A stretch of DNA of 38,618 bases from UHGV virus genome UHGV-0392077; one strand, written 5' to 3'. The stretch is from a virus. The position numbers and the translations under genes are program-made. Numbering within the stretch: the first letter of the stretch is position 1; each line of letters begins with the position of its first letter. Shown here piece after piece: positions 6,804 through 28,217 of the stretch. A model generated the notes under the pieces. It was not told where the DNA came from. It searched no databases and was given only the letters and a program-made list of their open reading frames with translations.

Positions 6804-6835
6804 TTGATTTTTGTTACCTTATGGGTGAATATTTA
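6804..6835 (+). promoter_or_regulatory. candidate rightward early promoter (PR-like)
   Basis: TTGATT at 6804-6809, then an A/T-rich -10 candidate around 6828-6835; operator site 3 lies in the spacer. Confidence 0.35.
6814..6828. promoter_or_regulatory. operator-like palindrome TTACC-ttatg-GGTGA (site 3)
   Basis: Same TTACCTTAnnGGTGAAT variant as the site at 9115-9129. Confidence 0.5.
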
Positions 6836-6864
6836 TTATCTGAAATAAATATCAGGCAATAGCT

Positions 6865-7095
6865 ATGAGCGATAACGGACATTTCGATTTCAAAAAGCAC
6901 TGGCTTGCACTTACTCCGGATGAGCGTGAAGCCTTCGCACAGGAAGCCGGAACGACGAGTCACTATATCCAGACTCACTTAACAGGTAAGCGCAAAATGC
7001 CAGGTAAAGTATTGATGAATGGGCTTTTTAAAGCCTGTAAAACAAGACAATGGCTGCGCTCAAAAGCAGAACTGGCATACTTCTTCTACTCATGA
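6865..7095 (+). CDS. Cro-like HTH DNA-binding protein (putative)
   Basis: 76 aa, first gene of the rightward operon, divergent from the repressor; segment EREAFAQEAGTTSHYIQTHLTGKR is HTH-like. Confidence 0.5.
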   Translation: MSDNGHFDFKKHWLALTPDEREAFAQEAGTTSHYIQTHLTGKRKMPGKVLMNGLFKACKTRQWLRSKAELAYFFYS

Positions 7096-7116: not shown

Positions 7117-7142
7117 AGACCGCCACCTGGCGGTCTTTTCAT
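7117..7142 (+). terminator. rho-independent terminator after the Cro-like gene (tR1-like)
   Basis: AGACCGCC-ACCT-GGCGGTCT followed by TTTTC. Confidence 0.5.
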
Positions 7143-7243: not shown

Positions 7244-7456
7244 TTGAAGATAGTAACCAGAATGGAGGCCGCAAAAGCCGGGTTAAATCGCTATTTCACA
7301 GGAAAGCGGTGCCGTCACGGCCATCTCTCTGAAAGGTATGTTCTGAACGGAACATGTGTTGAATGTGCAATGAATAGCGCCAACCGCCATCGTAATGAAT
7401 TTGCTTGTGCACTAAAGAGTGCAAGAGGGGAAACCTATGGCAAGCAGCTGGATTAA
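7244..7456 (+). CDS. small Cys/His-rich (zinc-ribbon-like) protein
   Basis: 70 aa from TTG 7244 (AGGGG upstream); contains C-x-H-G-H ... C-x-E-C. Confidence 0.4.
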   Translation: MKIVTRMEAAKAGLNRYFTGKRCRHGHLSERYVLNGTCVECAMNSANRHRNEFACALKSARGETYGKQLD

Positions 7457-8267
7457 GGTTGAAGTTATCACTCCTGATAAACCTGAAATTTTTCAGATAG
7501 CAGAAATTCTGGGTATTGATCCAGATGCTGTTCTTGGAAAGCTGGTTCGTATATGGGCATGGGCTGACCAGCAAACAATAGACGGTAACGCTGGCAGCGT
7601 TACAAAAGGAGTACTTGATAGACTCGCTTTTATTACAGGATTTGCTGACGCCCTCATTAGCGTCGGATGGCTTGCTTATCATGACGGCAAACTAATTCTT
7701 CCAAACTTTGAGCGACACAATGGAGAATCATCGAAAAAACGTGCACTTACGAATAGAAGAGTGGCAGAGCATCGAAAACGAGTAACGCAAAAAGTAACGC
7801 CAACAGCGTTACAAAAGGAGTTACCAGAGGAAGAGGAAGAGGAAGATATATATAAAACCCCACACATAGCGCACGTGCGCGAGGGTGCTCCGACCAGTGA
7901 AGCGAACGGTATGCCGTTGCAGGTGGCTGAACCTGAATTTCTGGATGGCCTGAGTGAACCCATCGGGAAATTTCCGATGACCGATGGCTGGCATCCGTCG
8001 CCGGATTTTCGACGGCGTGCTGCGCTGTGGGGAACGGCCCTGCCGGAACCGGAATTTACACCTGCTGAACTTGCTGCATTCCGGGATTACTGGATGGCTG
8101 AGGGCAAAGTGTTCACGCAGGTTCAGTGGGAACAAAAATTCGCCAGGCACGTAAATCATATCAGGGGAAAATCAAAAAACGCCGGGAAAAGCGATGAGCT
8201 TGACTGGAATAACACTGACTGGATAGAAGGGGTGTGGGATGAAATCAACTCCAGAACTTCTCAATGA
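7437..8267 (+). CDS. replication initiation protein with DnaT-like C-terminal domain
   Basis: C-terminus GKFPMTDGWHPSPDFRRRAALWGTALPEPEFTPAELAAFRDYWMAEGKVFTQVQWEQKFARHV closely parallels the E. coli DnaT C-terminus as I recall it. ATG 7437 with SD-like AGAGGGG. Iteron-like repeats lie inside the gene. Confidence 0.7.
   Translation: MASSWIKVEVITPDKPEIFQIAEILGIDPDAVLGKLVRIWAWADQQTIDGNAGSVTKGVLDRLAFITGFADALISVGWLAYHDGKLILPNFERHNGESSKKRALTNRRVAEHRKRVTQKVTPTALQKELPEEEEEEDIYKTPHIAHVREGAPTSEANGMPLQVAEPEFLDGLSEPIGKFPMTDGWHPSPDFRRRAALWGTALPEPEFTPAELAAFRDYWMAEGKVFTQVQWEQKFARHVNHIRGKSKNAGKSDELDWNNTDWIEGVWDEINSRTSQ
7585..7860. repeat. iteron-like repeats plus AT-rich tract: candidate replication origin inside the initiator gene
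   Basis: GTAACGCT/AGCGTTAC inverted pair at 7585-7603; AGTAACGC at 7781 and 7793; 17-bp direct repeat AGCGTTACAAAAGGAGT at 7596-7612 and 7805-7821, read in different codon phases; then GAGGAAGAGGAAGAGGAAGA and TATATATAAAA (7845-7857). Confidence 0.35.
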
Positions 8268-9015
8268 GTACGATCGCTTACGTGAGCATGGTGTTGCTGT
8301 GCATGAAGAGCGGCGTGACAGCAATGGCAAAAAGGAGCAGGTCGCTAGAATTTTCAATGAACTATTTGTCCAGTTACAGGCTGCATTTCCTGCAAGCGTT
8401 TCGACCATAAGGGAGCAGAACAAACTTAATGAATTCCGTAAGCAATGGATGCTTGCGTTTCTGGAGAATGGGATCACTACAATGGAACAGGTTAACGCTG
8501 GTATGCGCTACGCCCGCGCCAGTGAATCTCCGTTCTGGCCGTCGCCAGGGCAATTTATCAAGTGGTGTAAAGACAGCAAGATGGTTCTTGGCGTCACCAT
8601 TGACGATGTGATGGCGGAGTTTCACCGGTACAGCAAGGAAAAAAGTTTATATCCTGGTGGTCCCGAAAGATTCCCGTGGCGGCATCCGGTTATGTACTGG
8701 GTCGTATGTGATACCCGCCGTGCAATGTATCAGCGCCAGCTTAGCGAGATTGAGGTTGAGAAACACGCGCGCAGGCTGCTCGATGATTGGGCGAAAAAGG
8801 TGGCTTCCGGGCAGCAGATACCAGATCCGGTGATCAGCATACAGGCAAAGCCAGAACCCATGAGTACGCCTCCGGACACAGGGAGAGACGTTTACCACCC
8901 GCCAGGGCGAAGTTTCGGGTGCATGCCTAACGCCGCCACCACGGGGGGAATAACACCGGCGCAGTGGCTGATGGAGGAATACAGGCGGGGAAAGGCGGCA
9001 GGATTTATCAAGTAA
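8239..9015 (+). CDS. lambda P-like replication protein (DnaB helicase loader)
   Basis: Segment QVARIFNELFVQLQAAFPASVSTIREQNKLNEFRKQWMLAFLENGITTMEQVNAGMRYARASESPFWPSPGQFIKWC is near-collinear with phage lambda P as recalled (…FPASLANRDQNEVNEIRRQWVLAFRENGITTMEQVNAGMRVARRQNRPFLPSPGQFVAWC…). Confidence 0.8.
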   Translation: MKSTPELLNEYDRLREHGVAVHEERRDSNGKKEQVARIFNELFVQLQAAFPASVSTIREQNKLNEFRKQWMLAFLENGITTMEQVNAGMRYARASESPFWPSPGQFIKWCKDSKMVLGVTIDDVMAEFHRYSKEKSLYPGGPERFPWRHPVMYWVVCDTRRAMYQRQLSEIEVEKHARRLLDDWAKKVASGQQIPDPVISIQAKPEPMSTPPDTGRDVYHPPGRSFGCMPNAATTGGITPAQWLMEEYRRGKAAGFIK

Positions 9016-9052
9016 TACCAGCGCGATAGCGCATTTTTTTACGTCTCAACAA

Positions 9053-9477: not shown

Positions 9478-9538
9478 ATCGACGATCTTTTTAGTTATCA
9501 ATGTAATCAATAAGTTATGTGGATAAGCGAGGGTAAAG

Positions 9539-25152: not shown

Positions 25153-25691
25153 TGTGTAACCCAGCCATCGCTTTGGTTGCCGTCACAGTGGCATCCACAG
25201 CCGCGTCAATGTACAGCCAGAGCAAGCAGGCAAAATACCAGTCAGCCATAGCTGATCGGAATGCTGAAATTGCTGAAGCTCAGGCACAGGATTCAATCAA
25301 TCGTGGGAATATTGAAGCGGATCAGCGTCGTCGTGAAATGCGTCAACGCTCAGGCACTGCGGCGGCCACTATGGGGGCTACCGGTGCGGAATTAAGTAGC
25401 GGAACAGCTCTTGACGTTTTTGCGGATAATGCTCAGTTCGGCACTCTTGATGCGTTAACGACAGTGAATAATGCTCAGCGTGAGGCATATGGGTATCAGG
25501 TTCAGGGAATGAATGCTCAGGCACAGGGGGCTGCTGCTCAGTCGGCTGCTAAATCATCGATGACCAGCACTTTGTTAACGGCACCACTAAAAGCATACGG
25601 TGCATACCAGATGGGCGGCGGAACGTGGAGCCCGTTCTCTCAGAAAGCTGCGCCGATTTCTGCTGCTGTTGGCACTCCAACAGGTCGATAA
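25152..25691 (+). CDS. hypothetical virion/internal protein (Ala/Gln-rich)
   Basis: 179 aa, start overlaps the upstream stop (ATGA). Confidence 0.4.
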   Translation: MCNPAIALVAVTVASTAASMYSQSKQAKYQSAIADRNAEIAEAQAQDSINRGNIEADQRRREMRQRSGTAAATMGATGAELSSGTALDVFADNAQFGTLDALTTVNNAQREAYGYQVQGMNAQAQGAAAQSAAKSSMTSTLLTAPLKAYGAYQMGGGTWSPFSQKAAPISAAVGTPTGR

Positions 25692-25703: not shown

Positions 25704-28217
25704 ATGCCAGTTGTACCAACAACATCGGGCCGCCAGGTTCAAAGCAGAGGGATTTCGACGCAGGGATTCTCATCGTTTCAGACACCAAATGTCGGTGATG
25801 TACTTGGCGATGTTGCAGAGCAATATGCAGGTATTATTGCGCAGGCAAAACAGCGTGCGAATGTTGCTATGGCTCAGGATGCTTCTCTTAGCTTAAGCCA
25901 GATAAGCAGCGATCTGCTGAATAACCCTGAAACAGGTTTGCTTAACCTGAAAGGGAAAAATGCTATTGGAAAAGGTCAGGAGTATACGCAGCAGTTTGAT
26001 GCCCAGGTCGAGCAACTGGCTATGTCGCTGCCGGATGAACAGGCCCGTAATGCTTTCATGCAGCAGGCACAGCAGCAGCGCATTCAGTTCACTACGCAGG
26101 CCGGGCGGCACGAGATAGGGCAAATTAATGCCTACGAAGAAGGTCAGTTTCAGGCGACGCTGCTGAATAATGGTAAAAATGCCGCAGCATTGTATGGCGA
26201 CAATGCCGCATACGTATTGGCTAATAAGCAAACTTTCCAGCAAATTGAGGATTACGGCATTGCGCATGGCTGGAGCGACGAGCAAATCCAGGCCAAGAAA
26301 ATCGAGTTTAAAGAGAAGGTTGCTGATGCCGCATTGTCCCAGTGGTCGGCAAACAATGCGACCGCATTCATCCAAAGTAATGGCGAGTTAAGTGATACTG
26401 CTGCTGGAGCTCGCCGTGCTGTAGCAGATAGTGACTCTTCCGAGCGTGCCCGTGGCATACGCAACAATAACCCAGGAAATCTCGAATACAGCAAAACTAA
26501 TCCGTGGGTAGGCCAGACCGGTGATGATGGTCGATTTGCTAAATTCGAAACACCTGAACACGGGATTCGTGCATTAGGGCGAAACCTGATGTCGTATCAG
26601 AGGCAGGGTATTGATACCGTCAGCGAGATAATTAATCGCTGGGCACCGCCTACTGATAAAAATGATACTATGTCGTATATCAAAGCAGTGTGCGAACAAC
26701 TTGGCGTTTCTGCTGATGATCCTCTCGATGCATCTAATCCTGATACCCTGAAGGCGCTTTGTGCAGCCATTATCCATCATGAGAACGGTAACCAGCCATA
26801 CAGTGATCAGCAGTTAACTGCTGGTGTCAGTGCAGCACTTGGTTTATCAACAATTCCAACCAACACCAAACGCTATACCGGTAATGCAGCATTCGATGCG
26901 GCATCTCCTGAGGCGCAGGCAAGTTTTATGCGACAGGCGGATCAACTGCGTCGGCAGCAGCAGGCTGAATATAAAACGATGATTGACAGCCAGGTTCGCG
27001 ATGCGACGGCTGCGTATATGCGTGGCGTTGAATTTCCTAACCCACCTGGTGAGGATGATTTTATTGCAGCTTATGGAGTCAGAGAAGGAAACCTGCGATA
27101 TACCGAGTTTAAGAATACGCAGATCGCCGGACAGTATATAGGCTCTTTCCGCAACATGCCGACAAGCAGCATTACAGCATATGTTGAGCAATTACGCCCG
27201 GATACTGGTGATACAGGGGAGGGGTATGCGGCACGCGCAGATCTTTATGACAACGTTGTTTCGGCTGCAAATCAGGTGATAAAGCAGCGGCAGTCGGATC
27301 CTGTGCAGTTCTCTCTTGCCTCCGGACTGGCAAAGCCTATCGACATGAGCAATAAGGATAACTTTGGACAGAGCGTTGCCTTGCGTGCCGCTCAGGTCAG
27401 TGACCTTGCTAAGTCATATGGCACTCCACTGACGTTCTTTTCCAAAGACGAGGCCAATCAGATCGGTGTTTTCTTTCGTGATGCTCCAGTTTCCCAACAG
27501 GCAGCATATCTCGATACCATCAGGCAGAGTACTGGTGGTGGGCAGGTGTATATGTCAGCACTACAGCAGATCAGTGCCAACGCGCCATCTGCTGCCGTTG
27601 CCGGGATACTGATGGATAAGCCTGGTGGTATTTTGGCAGAAAAAAACTGGTTTAATCCGGATGTTTCCGTGTCTCCTGAAACCGCTGCGCAGACAATTCT
27701 TGCTGGCGCGGCGGCTCGTAAAGGTACTGATGATGCGAAAGGTATTCCGATGCCTAAAGATGCTGATCTTCGCCTTGAGTTTTCTGACATGGTGAAGGAT
27801 GCATTTGCTGGTGACGCTCAGGGAGCATCAATGGCATACGAGATCGCAAAGGATTATTACGCTGGTGTGATGGCGAAAAAAGGCGTGGTATCAGGCGAAA
27901 TTGACAATGATGTCTGGAAACAGGCTGTTAACGTAGCTACAGGTGGCGTGCATGACTATAACGGAATGGGGAATGTCCTTTTGCCGTGGGGAATGTCTGC
28001 AGAGCAATTCGATAAGCAGGTTAATCAGGCTTGGAATGAACAAGTTGTCGGCACCGGGATAAAAACACCGCCTGGTCAGTATGGTTTGCAAAGTTACGGC
28101 GATAGTCAGTACCTGGTGAAACTTGGTACTGGTTATCTGCTGAAAGATGATGGTTCTCCTGTTGTTCTTGATCTGACACAGAAGCGTCAGAGATTCTCCG
28201 GAGATATTCCGCAATGA
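25704..28217 (+). CDS. internal virion / ejection protein (837 aa) with an internal globular insert
   Basis: Largely Ala/Gln-rich with a distinct segment (about 26450-26800) RARGIRNNNPGNLEYS...HHENGNQPY. Role inferred from position. Confidence 0.5.
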   Translation: MPVVPTTSGRQVQSRGISTQGFSSFQTPNVGDVLGDVAEQYAGIIAQAKQRANVAMAQDASLSLSQISSDLLNNPETGLLNLKGKNAIGKGQEYTQQFDAQVEQLAMSLPDEQARNAFMQQAQQQRIQFTTQAGRHEIGQINAYEEGQFQATLLNNGKNAAALYGDNAAYVLANKQTFQQIEDYGIAHGWSDEQIQAKKIEFKEKVADAALSQWSANNATAFIQSNGELSDTAAGARRAVADSDSSERARGIRNNNPGNLEYSKTNPWVGQTGDDGRFAKFETPEHGIRALGRNLMSYQRQGIDTVSEIINRWAPPTDKNDTMSYIKAVCEQLGVSADDPLDASNPDTLKALCAAIIHHENGNQPYSDQQLTAGVSAALGLSTIPTNTKRYTGNAAFDAASPEAQASFMRQADQLRRQQQAEYKTMIDSQVRDATAAYMRGVEFPNPPGEDDFIAAYGVREGNLRYTEFKNTQIAGQYIGSFRNMPTSSITAYVEQLRPDTGDTGEGYAARADLYDNVVSAANQVIKQRQSDPVQFSLASGLAKPIDMSNKDNFGQSVALRAAQVSDLAKSYGTPLTFFSKDEANQIGVFFRDAPVSQQAAYLDTIRQSTGGGQVYMSALQQISANAPSAAVAGILMDKPGGILAEKNWFNPDVSVSPETAAQTILAGAAARKGTDDAKGIPMPKDADLRLEFSDMVKDAFAGDAQGASMAYEIAKDYYAGVMAKKGVVSGEIDNDVWKQAVNVATGGVHDYNGMGNVLLPWGMSAEQFDKQVNQAWNEQVVGTGIKTPPGQYGLQSYGDSQYLVKLGTGYLLKDDGSPVVLDLTQKRQRFSGDIPQ

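What the first reader, a model, noticed from the sequence alone, without database searches (positions are those of the whole stretch)
7585..7860. Iteron-like repeats inside the replication-initiator gene: candidate origin
GTAACGC-type 8-mers occur five times in both orientations (7585, 7596, 7781, 7793, 7805) within the initiator coding sequence. A 17-bp direct repeat AGCGTTACAAAAGGAGT (7596 and 7805) is read in two different codon phases (GSVTKGV versus ALQKEL), which argues for DNA-level rather than protein-level conservation. A GAGGAA triplet run and TATATATAAAA follow. This mirrors lambda, where ori lies inside gene O.
Basis: seen in the sequence. Interest (0 to 1): 0.55.

Follow-up and report, generated by a model that had tools for sequence, protein, structure and literature searches.

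The report
Lambda-style replication origin inside initiator gene
The short repeats inside this phage's replication-initiator gene are real, are conserved as DNA rather than as protein, and are laid out like the phage lambda origin, so they most likely mark where the phage starts copying its genome; this is an expected kind of element, seen here in an initiator family whose origin I did not find described.

Summary
GTAACGC occurs five times in 7585-7812. This is the largest 7-mer cluster in the window, and 1 of 300 random sequences matched it.

The real layout has two clusters. Cluster A is a 19-bp palindrome at 7585-7603. Cluster B (7782-7824) has four half-sites, two forward then two reverse, 12 bp apart. 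An (AGAGGA)3.5 purine run, TATATATAAAA and a homology breakpoint follow.

Selection acts on the DNA. In 62 distinct relatives, third-codon-position diversity is 0.019 in half-sites against 0.310 elsewhere (p=1e-6). Half-sites are read in two frames, and spacers vary freely. The palindrome survives in a relative with 52% protein identity, read in another frame.

Relatives with diverged N-terminal domains keep the layout but use other half-sites: GTCCGC in epsilon15 and phiPSA1, GTCAC in Aeromonas and Vibrio phages. The epsilon15 class repeats the synonymous-site result (p=1.5e-7).

Cluster B sits at +345..+388, matching lambda (+348..+432) and phi80 (+364..+440). A lambda-P-family gene follows.

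The origin reading is supported by comparison but has no experimental proof. It is a new member of a known kind, of moderate interest.

The parts
7437..8267 (+). Replication initiator gene (276 aa). It has an N-terminal domain (aa 1-115) with no Pfam family, a low-complexity linker, and a C-terminal DnaT-like domain (aa 179-249, about 7971-8183).
   Evidence: ORF. Pfam PF17948 at E=6.5e-19. PHROG 2509 'replication initiation protein' at E=1.5e-129. Nucleotide homology of relatives starts exactly at ATG 7437.
7585..7612 (.). Cluster A: the palindromic site GTAACGC-tggca-GCGTTAC (7585-7603) plus the shared flank AAAAGGAGT. It encodes a predicted loop (aa 50-56) of the N-terminal domain.
   Evidence: Invariant in 62 relatives, including third codon positions. 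Rac-type genes carry an extra 12-bp half-site here. Read in another frame in a Xanthomonadales MAG. The loop comes from the AF2 model.
7782..7824 (.). Cluster B: four half-sites at 12-bp spacing. They are GTAACGC (7782), GTAACGC (7794), GCGTTAC (7806) and GAGTTAC (7818, one mismatch), arranged as two forward then two reverse.
   Evidence: Half-sites are conserved and spacers hypervariable. The outer left half-site is the least conserved. The offset of +345..+388 from the ATG matches lambda and phi80 iterons.
7825..7857 (+). Purine-rich tandem repeat (AGAGGA)3.5 followed by the AT tract GATATATATAAAA. This is the candidate DNA-unwinding region.
   Evidence: TRF. 7817-7846 is the most purine-skewed 30-mer in the window, and 7828-7857 is in the 98.7th percentile for low duplex stability. 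Synonymous sites are conserved. Equivalent purine repeats follow the half-sites in every relative examined.
7846..7879 (.). Module junction. Homology with relatives that share only the N-terminal and origin cassette ends here. It includes the GC palindrome GCGCACGTGCGC (7868-7879), which travels with the C-terminal module.
   Evidence: In the listed blastn patterns for loci below about 97% identity, the N-terminal block ends between 7846 and 7879. GC palindrome. The lambda record marks recombination junctions at the same relative place.
8239..9015 (+). Lambda-P-family helicase-loader gene. It overlaps the initiator stop codon by 29 nt.
   Evidence: PF06992 at E=4.5e-55. ORF.

Best explanation
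This is the phage's origin of replication, built on the lambda plan and embedded in the gene for its own initiator.

**Shown here**
- There are two clusters of GTAACGC half-sites: one palindrome at 7585-7603 and four half-sites at 7782-7824.
- Cluster B is followed by a purine-skewed, easily melted tract at 7825-7857.
- All of these are under purifying selection as DNA, independent of the reading frame.
- The half-site sequence co-varies with the N-terminal domain of the initiator across relatives.

**Inferred**
- Dimers of the N-terminal domain bind the palindromic half-site pairs. The 12-bp spacing puts all four cluster-B half-sites on one face of the helix.
- The bound initiator distorts the DNA and opens the adjacent (AGAGGA)n/AT tract.
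- The C-terminal DnaT-like domain recruits the lambda-P-family protein, which delivers host DnaB helicase to the opened DNA.
- Cluster A, 209 bp upstream, is probably an auxiliary site that is looped or wrapped into the same complex. It may also let the initiator interfere with transcription of its own gene.

The cassette of N-terminal domain plus origin (7437 to about 7850) behaves as one exchangeable unit. It is joined in different phages to different C-terminal domains and helicase loaders.
For: 1. **Non-random clustering.** Five of nine copies fall in 228 bp. It is the largest 7-mer cluster in the window, and 1 of 300 random sequences matched it.
2. **DNA-level selection.** Third-codon-position diversity is 0.019 in half-sites and 0.030 in the purine repeat, against 0.310 elsewhere, in 62 distinct relatives (p=1e-6 and p=2e-4). 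Spacers between half-sites are hypervariable.
3. **Replication of that result.** In 73 epsilon15-class sequences the figures are 0.015 against 0.214 (p=1.5e-7).
4. **Frame independence.** Of 49 half-sites in 9 loci, 24 are read in frame 0 and 25 in frame 1. The cluster-A palindrome is 18/19 identical in a Xanthomonadales MAG with 52% protein identity, but is read in another frame.
5. **Same layout with switched half-sites.**
   - GTAACGC in Escherichia, Klebsiella, Samsonia, Xanthomonas, Ralstonia, Pusillimonas and Akkermansia loci.
   - GTCCGC in epsilon15 and phiPSA1.
   - GTCAC in Aeromonas pAEv1818 and a Vibrio phage.
   - All copies change together, and each array is followed by a purine repeat and an AT patch.
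6. **Match to lambda and phi80.** Iteron offsets are +348..+432 in lambda and +364..+440 in phi80. Both have a purine-rich AT tract, a P-family gene downstream and a hybrid junction just past the AT tract.
7. **Genomic context.** In most relatives examined the gene sits next to a helicase loader of the P family or the DnaC/IstB family. The Klebsiella and epsilon15 loci have none adjacent.
8. **Functional origin in a related prophage region.** Rac-type prophages are reported to have a functional origin, oriJ, in this gene region (PMC3945230, Fig. S3 legend). Some Rac variants carry exactly this cassette.
Against: - There is no experimental evidence for origin firing or for initiator binding in this family.
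- The motif and the domain lie on the same DNA. Their co-inheritance is therefore automatic, and co-variation is suggestive rather than proof of binding.
- The AT tract is short, about 13 bp, and is only in the 98.7th percentile of instability. Intergenic operator regions nearby are less stable.
- The distance between clusters A and B is not a constant number of helical turns across relatives.
- The published oriJ primers map about 650 bp downstream, in ydaV. That origin is therefore not finely mapped in the material I could read.
Confidence: 0.78

Rival explanations
1. The sites are operators rather than an origin. The initiator, or another phage protein, binds inside the gene only to control expression, for example as a transcriptional roadblock or autorepressor, and replication starts elsewhere.
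For: Rac-type relatives carry an extra palindromic GTAACGC-N-GCGTTAC site at -33/-20, just upstream of the initiator start codon. That is where an autoregulatory operator would sit. Cluster A lies early in the coding sequence.
Against: The array is always coupled to a purine-skewed repeat and an AT tract, which an operator does not need. Its position and neighbours match mapped lambda and phi80 origins. No other candidate origin with repeats was seen in the window. The two functions are not mutually exclusive.
Confidence: 0.1
2. The palindromes act as single-strand or RNA hairpins. They could be primosome-assembly-type hairpins recognised through the DnaT-like domain, or antisense-strand intrinsic terminators.
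For: 7580-7608 and 7778-7828 fold as ssDNA hairpins of -7.6 and -8.8 kcal/mol, with z-scores of about -4. The terminator scan flags both on the minus strand, one with a T-run. The initiator carries a DnaT-like domain.
Against: Sequence, not pairing, is conserved. Every half-site keeps the same 7-mer, and the loops vary. Many relatives have runs of direct repeats that cannot pair: four in a row in the Xanthomonadales MAG and three in pAEv1818. The same sites occur in relatives whose C-terminal domain is not DnaT-like.
Confidence: 0.05
3. The conservation reflects coding or recombination constraints only. Either a repeated peptide motif is needed in the protein, or the conserved tract is a 'linker' that promotes exchange of modules between phages, with no binding function.
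For: The (GAGGAA)n/AT tract is shared at 93% identity even with loci otherwise too diverged for megablast. In the listed blastn patterns for loci below about 97% identity, the N-terminal block ends between 7846 and 7879. The tract encodes an acidic EEEEEE run.
Against: Half-sites are read in two frames as different peptides: VT. or AL., and .NA or .VT. Synonymous positions are frozen while neighbouring codons vary. An Asn-to-His change in the loop follows the AAC-to-CAC change of the DNA motif in the Vibrio relative, so the DNA dictates the protein there. A recombination linker would not explain the half-site arrays upstream of it.
Confidence: 0.04

Closest known systems
Phage lambda ori (inside gene O) and phi80 ori (inside gene 15)
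   Same: - The origin lies inside the initiator gene, in the segment between the N-terminal and C-terminal domains.
- Binding-site offsets from the start codon are +348..+432 in lambda, +364..+440 in phi80 and +345..+388 here.
- Each lambda iteron is itself an 18-19-bp inverted repeat, like GTAACGC-N5-GCGTTAC.
- An AT-rich tract with a purine-rich top strand follows the sites.
- A palindrome lies just beyond that tract.
- A P-family gene is next.
- The hybrid junction lies just past the AT tract.
   Different: - The initiator is not homologous to lambda O. There is no PF04492 hit, and hhalign probability is 0.1%.
- Its C-terminal domain is DnaT-like.
- The sites are 7-bp half-sites in a nested arrangement of two forward and two reverse, not four tandem 19-mers.
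- A second cluster lies 209 bp upstream, inside the sequence coding for the N-terminal domain.
- The AT tract is much shorter, and is preceded by a perfect hexamer repeat.
oriJ of the Rac prophage (ydaU-ydaV region of E. coli K-12)
   Same: The gene order is the same: repressor, cro/cII-like genes, initiator, helicase loader. oriJ is reported as an active origin (PMC3945230, Fig. S3 legend; reference to Potrykus et al. 2000 in PMC11014345). K-12 ydaU shows the same internal layout: GTTCAAAC twice, then GTTTGAAC, then GATAAA-type purine repeats, an AT tract and a C-rich tract. Rac variants from strain 442/2 and phage 673R7 carry the window's own GTAACGC cassette.
   Different: The K-12 YdaU N-terminal domain is DUF1376 and is unrelated to the window's. 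Its repeat sequence differs, and its loader is DnaC-like rather than P. I could not read a fine map of oriJ.
Origin cassettes of other Uetakevirus phages (epsilon15, phiV10)
   Same: Same virus group and the same replication-gene position. epsilon15 has the same domain family and a two-cluster layout of two forward and two reverse half-sites, followed by (AGAGA)n and ATATTAAA. phiV10 shares the DnaT-like C-terminal domain and a nearly identical C-terminal half of the P gene.
   Different: epsilon15 uses GTCCGC half-sites, and its cluster A lies at +54..+105. phiV10 has an unrelated HTH_36 N-terminal domain and 6-7 direct AAAACGGG repeats. Neither record annotates an origin.
Iteron origins of theta-replicating plasmids (Rep protein, direct iterons, DnaA boxes, AT-rich region)
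   Same: Both have repeated initiator-binding sites next to an AT-rich region. The initiator is encoded in cis.
   Different: The sites here are inside the coding sequence, are short, and are partly inverted. There is no DnaA box nearby. The helicase loader is phage-encoded.

Membership tests
Lambdoid origin inside the initiator gene (lambda/phi80 type) | The repeated sites lie within the initiator ORF, in the inter-domain segment about 350-440 nt from the start codon. | tested here: met
   Cluster B lies at +345..+388. Lambda sites are at +348..+432 and phi80 sites at +364..+440.
Lambdoid origin inside the initiator gene (lambda/phi80 type) | There are multiple copies of one binding motif, conserved as DNA. 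| tested here: met
   Six half-sites are present. Synonymous sites are frozen. Half-sites are read in two frames.
Lambdoid origin inside the initiator gene (lambda/phi80 type) | An AT-rich, strand-asymmetric tract lies immediately downstream of the repeats. | tested here: met
   The tract is (AGAGGA)3.5 plus TATATATAAAA. It includes the most purine-skewed 30-mer in the window and is in the 98.7th percentile for low stability. It is shorter than lambda's 40-bp tract.
Lambdoid origin inside the initiator gene (lambda/phi80 type) | A helicase-loader gene of the lambda P family lies directly downstream. | tested here: met
   PF06992 at E=4.5e-55 for 8239-9015.
Lambdoid origin inside the initiator gene (lambda/phi80 type) | The initiator is homologous to lambda O. 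| tested here: not met
   No lambda O family hit in Pfam. hhalign probability against lambda O is 0.1%. This element works like lambda ori, but its initiator belongs to another family.
Lambdoid origin inside the initiator gene (lambda/phi80 type) | The initiator binds the repeats, and replication starts there. | not testable with these tools
   This needs EMSA or footprinting, origin cloning, or marker-frequency mapping.
Rac oriJ (E. coli K-12 type) | The initiator is of the YdaU/DUF1376 type with its own repeats. | tested here: not met
   The N-terminal domains are unrelated and the repeats differ, GTTCAAAC rather than GTAACGC. Only the layout is shared.
Plasmid iteron origin | Direct 17-22-bp iterons outside the rep gene, with DnaA boxes. 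| tested here: not met
   The sites are inside the ORF and partly inverted. The nearest DnaA-box-like match is 1.7 kb away.

The most novel reading that the evidence does not exclude
This large initiator family has more than 3000 protein clusters at 90% identity and reaches from Enterobacteria to Xanthomonas, Ralstonia, Vibrio and Akkermansia. It may use a two-part origin in which the initiator binds both the linker-coding DNA and the DNA that encodes its own DNA-binding domain, bridging the two clusters into a loop.

The family shows at least three clean switches of half-site sequence: GTAACGC, GTCAC and GTCCGC. It would therefore be a natural data set for the recognition code of an uncharacterised DNA-binding fold. 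It would also be a clear case of a binding site dictating the amino-acid sequence of the protein that reads it.
Probability: 0.3. Interest if true: 0.6.

Novelty: new member of a known kind. Interest (0 to 1): 0.42.

Why it matters
- **Annotation.** It gives a concrete, testable origin for a temperate phage group (TL-2011b, ZX5, HEMP4 and related Uetakevirus-like phages) whose records and the ZX5 paper describe none. It extends the same annotation rule to thousands of related initiator genes, including Rac-like prophages of E. coli.
- **Replicon design and compatibility.** It defines a portable cassette of about 420 bp, comprising the N-terminal domain and the origin. This is useful for building phage-derived replicons and for predicting replication compatibility between co-resident prophages.
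- **Dual coding.** It is a clean example of overlapping protein and DNA-site constraints.
- **What it does not do.** It does not overturn anything. An origin inside the initiator gene is what a lambdoid-phage specialist would expect.

Tried and rejected
**Literature**
- Searches for oriJ, ydaU, epsilon15 with iterons, and lambdoid with DnaT with iterons gave no description of this origin. One search was wasted on the author name 'Orij'.
- Potrykus et al. 2000 and the epsilon15 genome paper are not held.
- The ZX5 paper does not discuss an origin.
- The published 'oriJ' PCR primers map inside ydaV and do not frame the repeats, so they give no fine mapping.

**Fold of the N-terminal domain**
- The PDB sequence profile search found nothing.
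- Foldseek against viral structures returned only uncharacterised family members.
- The afdb50 library was unavailable.
- The full-length AF2 model was poor (pLDDT 49.6). Only the DnaT-like domain was confident, so it cannot show that the linker is specifically disordered.

**Other tests**
- The genome-contig scan with a single protein gave only 5 loci, though these were the most informative distant ones.
- The first synonymous-site test on 6 sequences was underpowered (p=0.025) and was replaced by the test on 62 sequences.
- The GC-skew minimum lies near 5-7 kb but follows the switch in gene orientation, so I did not use it.
- There is no cluster of DnaA boxes.
- A-to-B spacing as a whole number of helical turns holds in the window (209 bp) but not across relatives.
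- I rejected the idea that the purine repeat is tied to the DnaT-like domain. The same repeat occurs with non-DnaT C-terminal domains.
- The small Cys/His ORF upstream is not the binding partner. It is absent from Rac-type loci that keep the sites.

Full report

Yes. GTAACGC lies at 7585(+), 7597(-), 7782(+), 7794(+) and 7806(-). These are five of the nine copies in 38.6 kb, against about 3.8 expected for the whole window.

It is the largest cluster of any 7-mer in the window. Only 1 of 300 first-order Markov sequences reached five copies of any 7-mer within 240 bp.

That repeat runs 7585-7612 and 7794-7821 at 89% identity, and its mismatches all lie in the 5-bp spacer. The two copies are read in different frames, as GSVTKGV and ALQKEL.

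A sixth, degenerate half-site, GAGTTAC, lies at 7818. It is a perfect GCGTTAC in several relatives.

The anatomy is therefore:
- **Cluster A:** one 19-bp palindrome, GTAACGC-N5-GCGTTAC, at 7585-7603.
- **Cluster B:** four half-sites at exact 12-bp spacing, two forward then two reverse, at 7782-7824.
- **Purine repeat:** (AGAGGA)3.5 at 7826-7846.
- **AT tract:** TATATATAAAA, directly after the purine repeat.
- **Further downstream:** a C-rich stretch and the palindrome GCGCACGTGCGC at 7868-7879.

**2. Context**

The window resembles Uetakevirus-like temperate phages. TL-2011b, vB_EcoP_ZX5 and HEMP4 are about 98% identical over this region.

The repeats lie in ORF 7437-8267. This ORF matches PHROG 2509 'replication initiation protein' and has a C-terminal DnaT-like domain (PF17948). 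The first 115 residues have no Pfam family.

The next gene, 8239-9015, belongs to the lambda P family. A repressor, a cro-like gene and a terminator lie upstream.

**3. Is the conservation in the DNA or in the protein?**

It is in the DNA. Four lines of evidence agree.

- *Synonymous sites.* I compared 62 distinct relatives with a median 76% nucleotide identity. Third-codon-position diversity is 0.019 in the half-sites and 0.030 in the purine repeat, against 0.310 in the rest of the segment. The Mann-Whitney p-values are 1e-6 and 2e-4, and Fisher's test gives 6e-8.
- *Spacers.* The spacers between half-sites are among the most variable positions.
- *Reading frames.* Across nine loci, 49 half-sites are read about equally in two frames, as VT./AL. 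or as .NA/.VT. The third frame would create a TAA stop codon.
- *Distant relatives.* In a Xanthomonadales MAG with 52% protein identity, the cluster-A palindrome is 18/19 identical but is read in a different frame. An Akkermansia MAG at 37% identity still has GTAACGC, GTAACAC and GCGTTAC, followed by a purine run and an AT-rich tract.

**4. Co-variation with the N-terminal domain**

Relatives of the N-terminal domain (alignment) keep the layout but use different half-sites.

| Half-site | Loci |
|---|---|
| GTAACGC | Escherichia, Klebsiella, Enterobacter, Samsonia, Xanthomonas CP2, Ralstonia YL1, a Pusillimonas circular element |
| GTCCGC | epsilon15, Pseudomonas phiPSA1 |
| GTCAC(G) | Aeromonas pAEv1818, a Vibrio phage |

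In each case all copies in both clusters carry the same variant. A purine-rich short tandem repeat and an AT patch follow the array.

The Vibrio protein is 48% identical to the window's. Its loop reads GHA instead of GNA, exactly as the change from AAC to CAC in the DNA motif requires.

The synonymous-site result repeats independently in 73 epsilon15-class sequences. Diversity is 0.015 against 0.214, with p=1.5e-7.

Concerted change of five to ten sites points to a single trans-acting reader. The protein encoded by the same cassette is the simplest candidate. This step is inference, because the motif and the domain are physically the same DNA.

**5. Comparison with mapped origins**

In lambda, the four annotated iterons lie at +348..+432 of gene O. 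They are followed by a purine-rich AT tract and a palindrome. Hybrid junctions are annotated just beyond. In phi80, the gp15-binding sites lie at +364..+440 of gene 15. Here, cluster B lies at +345..+388.

In the listed blastn patterns for loci below about 97% identity, the N-terminal homology block ends between 7846 and 7879. In most of them it starts exactly at the ATG, 7437; some extend upstream to about 7105. The N-terminal domain and the origin therefore form one exchangeable cassette of about 420 bp.

That cassette is found joined to several different partners:
- DnaT-like or other C-terminal domains.
- P-family loaders, DnaC/IstB-family loaders, or no adjacent loader.

Conversely, the window's C-terminal module occurs behind unrelated N-terminal domains that have their own repeats. 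Rac-SA53 has a DUF1376 domain with GTTCAAAC repeats. phiV10 has an HTH_36 domain with direct AAAACGGG repeats.

**6. Mechanism**

*Shown:* the site architecture, DNA-level selection, co-variation, the purine skew and low stability of 7825-7857, and the adjacent P-family gene.

*Inferred:* N-terminal-domain dimers bind the palindromic pairs. The 12-bp spacing places cluster-B sites on one face of the helix. The complex opens the purine/AT tract. The C-terminal domain brings in the P protein with host DnaB. Cluster A is an auxiliary site, either looped into the complex or acting on transcription of the gene.

The AF2 model of the N-terminal domain has pLDDT 80.9. It consists of four helices, a beta-hairpin and a long basic helix, and cluster A encodes a loop. 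This is compatible with a winged-helix-like fold, but fold searches gave no confident assignment.

**7. Rivals**

- *Pure operator role.* This is possible as an additional function, since Rac-type loci have an extra site at -33/-20. It does not explain the obligatory purine/AT tract.
- *Hairpin-based function.* The palindromes fold at -7.6 and -8.8 kcal/mol. However, the sequence rather than the pairing is conserved, and many relatives have unpairable direct runs.
- *Purely coding or recombination-linker explanation.* This is contradicted by the frame and synonymous-site data.

**8. Novelty**

The principle is textbook for lambdoid phages. For this initiator family I found no annotated or published origin:
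- The epsilon15, phiV10 and TL-2011b records carry none.
- The ZX5 paper is silent on it.
- Literature searches found nothing.

oriJ of Rac is reported as functional (PMC3945230). The K-12 version has an unrelated N-terminal domain, and the published primers do not finely map it.

The family is large, with 3153 clusters at E<=1e-5.

**Verdict.** This is a new member of a known kind, with a distinctive two-cluster, half-site design. Interest is moderate.

Noticed in passing
L017:3512-3650 (E. coli K-12 Rac ydaU, offsets +392..+530): K-12 ydaU has an unrelated DUF1376 N-terminal domain but the same internal layout. It has GTTCAAAC twice and then GTTTGAAC, followed by GATAAAGATACAGATAAAGATCTAAAAACAGAT and CCCCCCCTAAATCCCCCC. 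This is a candidate core of the classical oriJ.
   Followed up: partly
L020:1214-1420 (phiV10 initiator, offsets +265..+470): phiV10 belongs to the same virus group and has a similar DnaT-like C-terminal domain and P gene. Its N-terminal domain is HTH_36, and it has 6-7 direct AAAACGGG repeats instead. Origin cassettes are therefore swapped within the genus.
   Followed up: partly
window 7117-7136 (+): A strong intrinsic-terminator-like hairpin, AGACCGCCACCTGGCGGTCT followed by Ts, lies between the cro-like ORF (6865-7095) and the replication genes, like tR1. The phiV10 record annotates a terminator at the same place.
   Followed up: no
window 7244-7456 (+): A 70-aa ORF with Cys/His pairs (CRHGH...CVEC) matches PHROG 1081, of unknown function. 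It ends 20 nt inside the initiator gene. It is present in BUCT554, Klebsiella phi3.2, epsilon15 (gp40) and phiV10 (p42), but absent from Rac-type loci that keep the GTAACGC sites.
   Followed up: partly
window 7868-7879: The perfect 12-bp GC palindrome GCGCACGTGCGC lies just past the AT tract. It travels with the C-terminal DnaT-like module: GCGCGCGCGTGCGCG in Rac-SA53, GCGCGCGCG in epsilon15 and GCGCGCG in BUCT554. It may be protein-coding (A-H/R-V-R-E) or the counterpart of lambda's palindrome.
   Followed up: partly
window 8239-9020: The P gene overlaps the initiator stop codon by 29 nt and is itself mosaic. Only 8485-9020 is about 97% identical to the phiV10-type P gene. The initiator C-terminal region and the first ~82 codons of P differ together, which would be expected if they contact each other.
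   Followed up: no
window 6826-6855: The least stable 30-mer of the region contains a 9/10 inverted repeat, AATATTTATT-N6-AATAAATAT, in the repressor/cro intergenic region. It is a candidate operator.
   Followed up: no
L001:1195-1214 and L004:1469-1488 (Rac-type loci, offsets -33..-14): An extra GTAACG...CGTTAC palindromic site lies just upstream of the initiator start codon in Rac 442/2 and phage 673R7. It is a possible autoregulatory operator and is absent from the window.
   Followed up: no
window 25430-25541 and 26187-26359: Two other small 7-mer clusters were seen. CTGAGCA occurs at 25430, 25472, 25514 and 25535, with spacings of 42, 42 and 21. ACAATGC occurs four times in 26187-26359. 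They are probably coding repeats in a structural gene.
   Followed up: no
window 9518-9526 (-): There is a single perfect DnaA box, TTATCCACA, 1.7 kb downstream of the repeats. It is isolated, and the count of near-matches is not above chance.
   Followed up: no
L102 (Pusillimonas sp. T7-7, NC_015459.1) and L103 (E. coli pE16EC1016-8, CP088505.1): Two circular 'plasmid' records of 41 and 52 kb are phage-like genomes. They carry this initiator family with the GTAACGC layout, next to phage regulatory genes. They may be extrachromosomal prophages or assembled phage DNA.
   Followed up: partly
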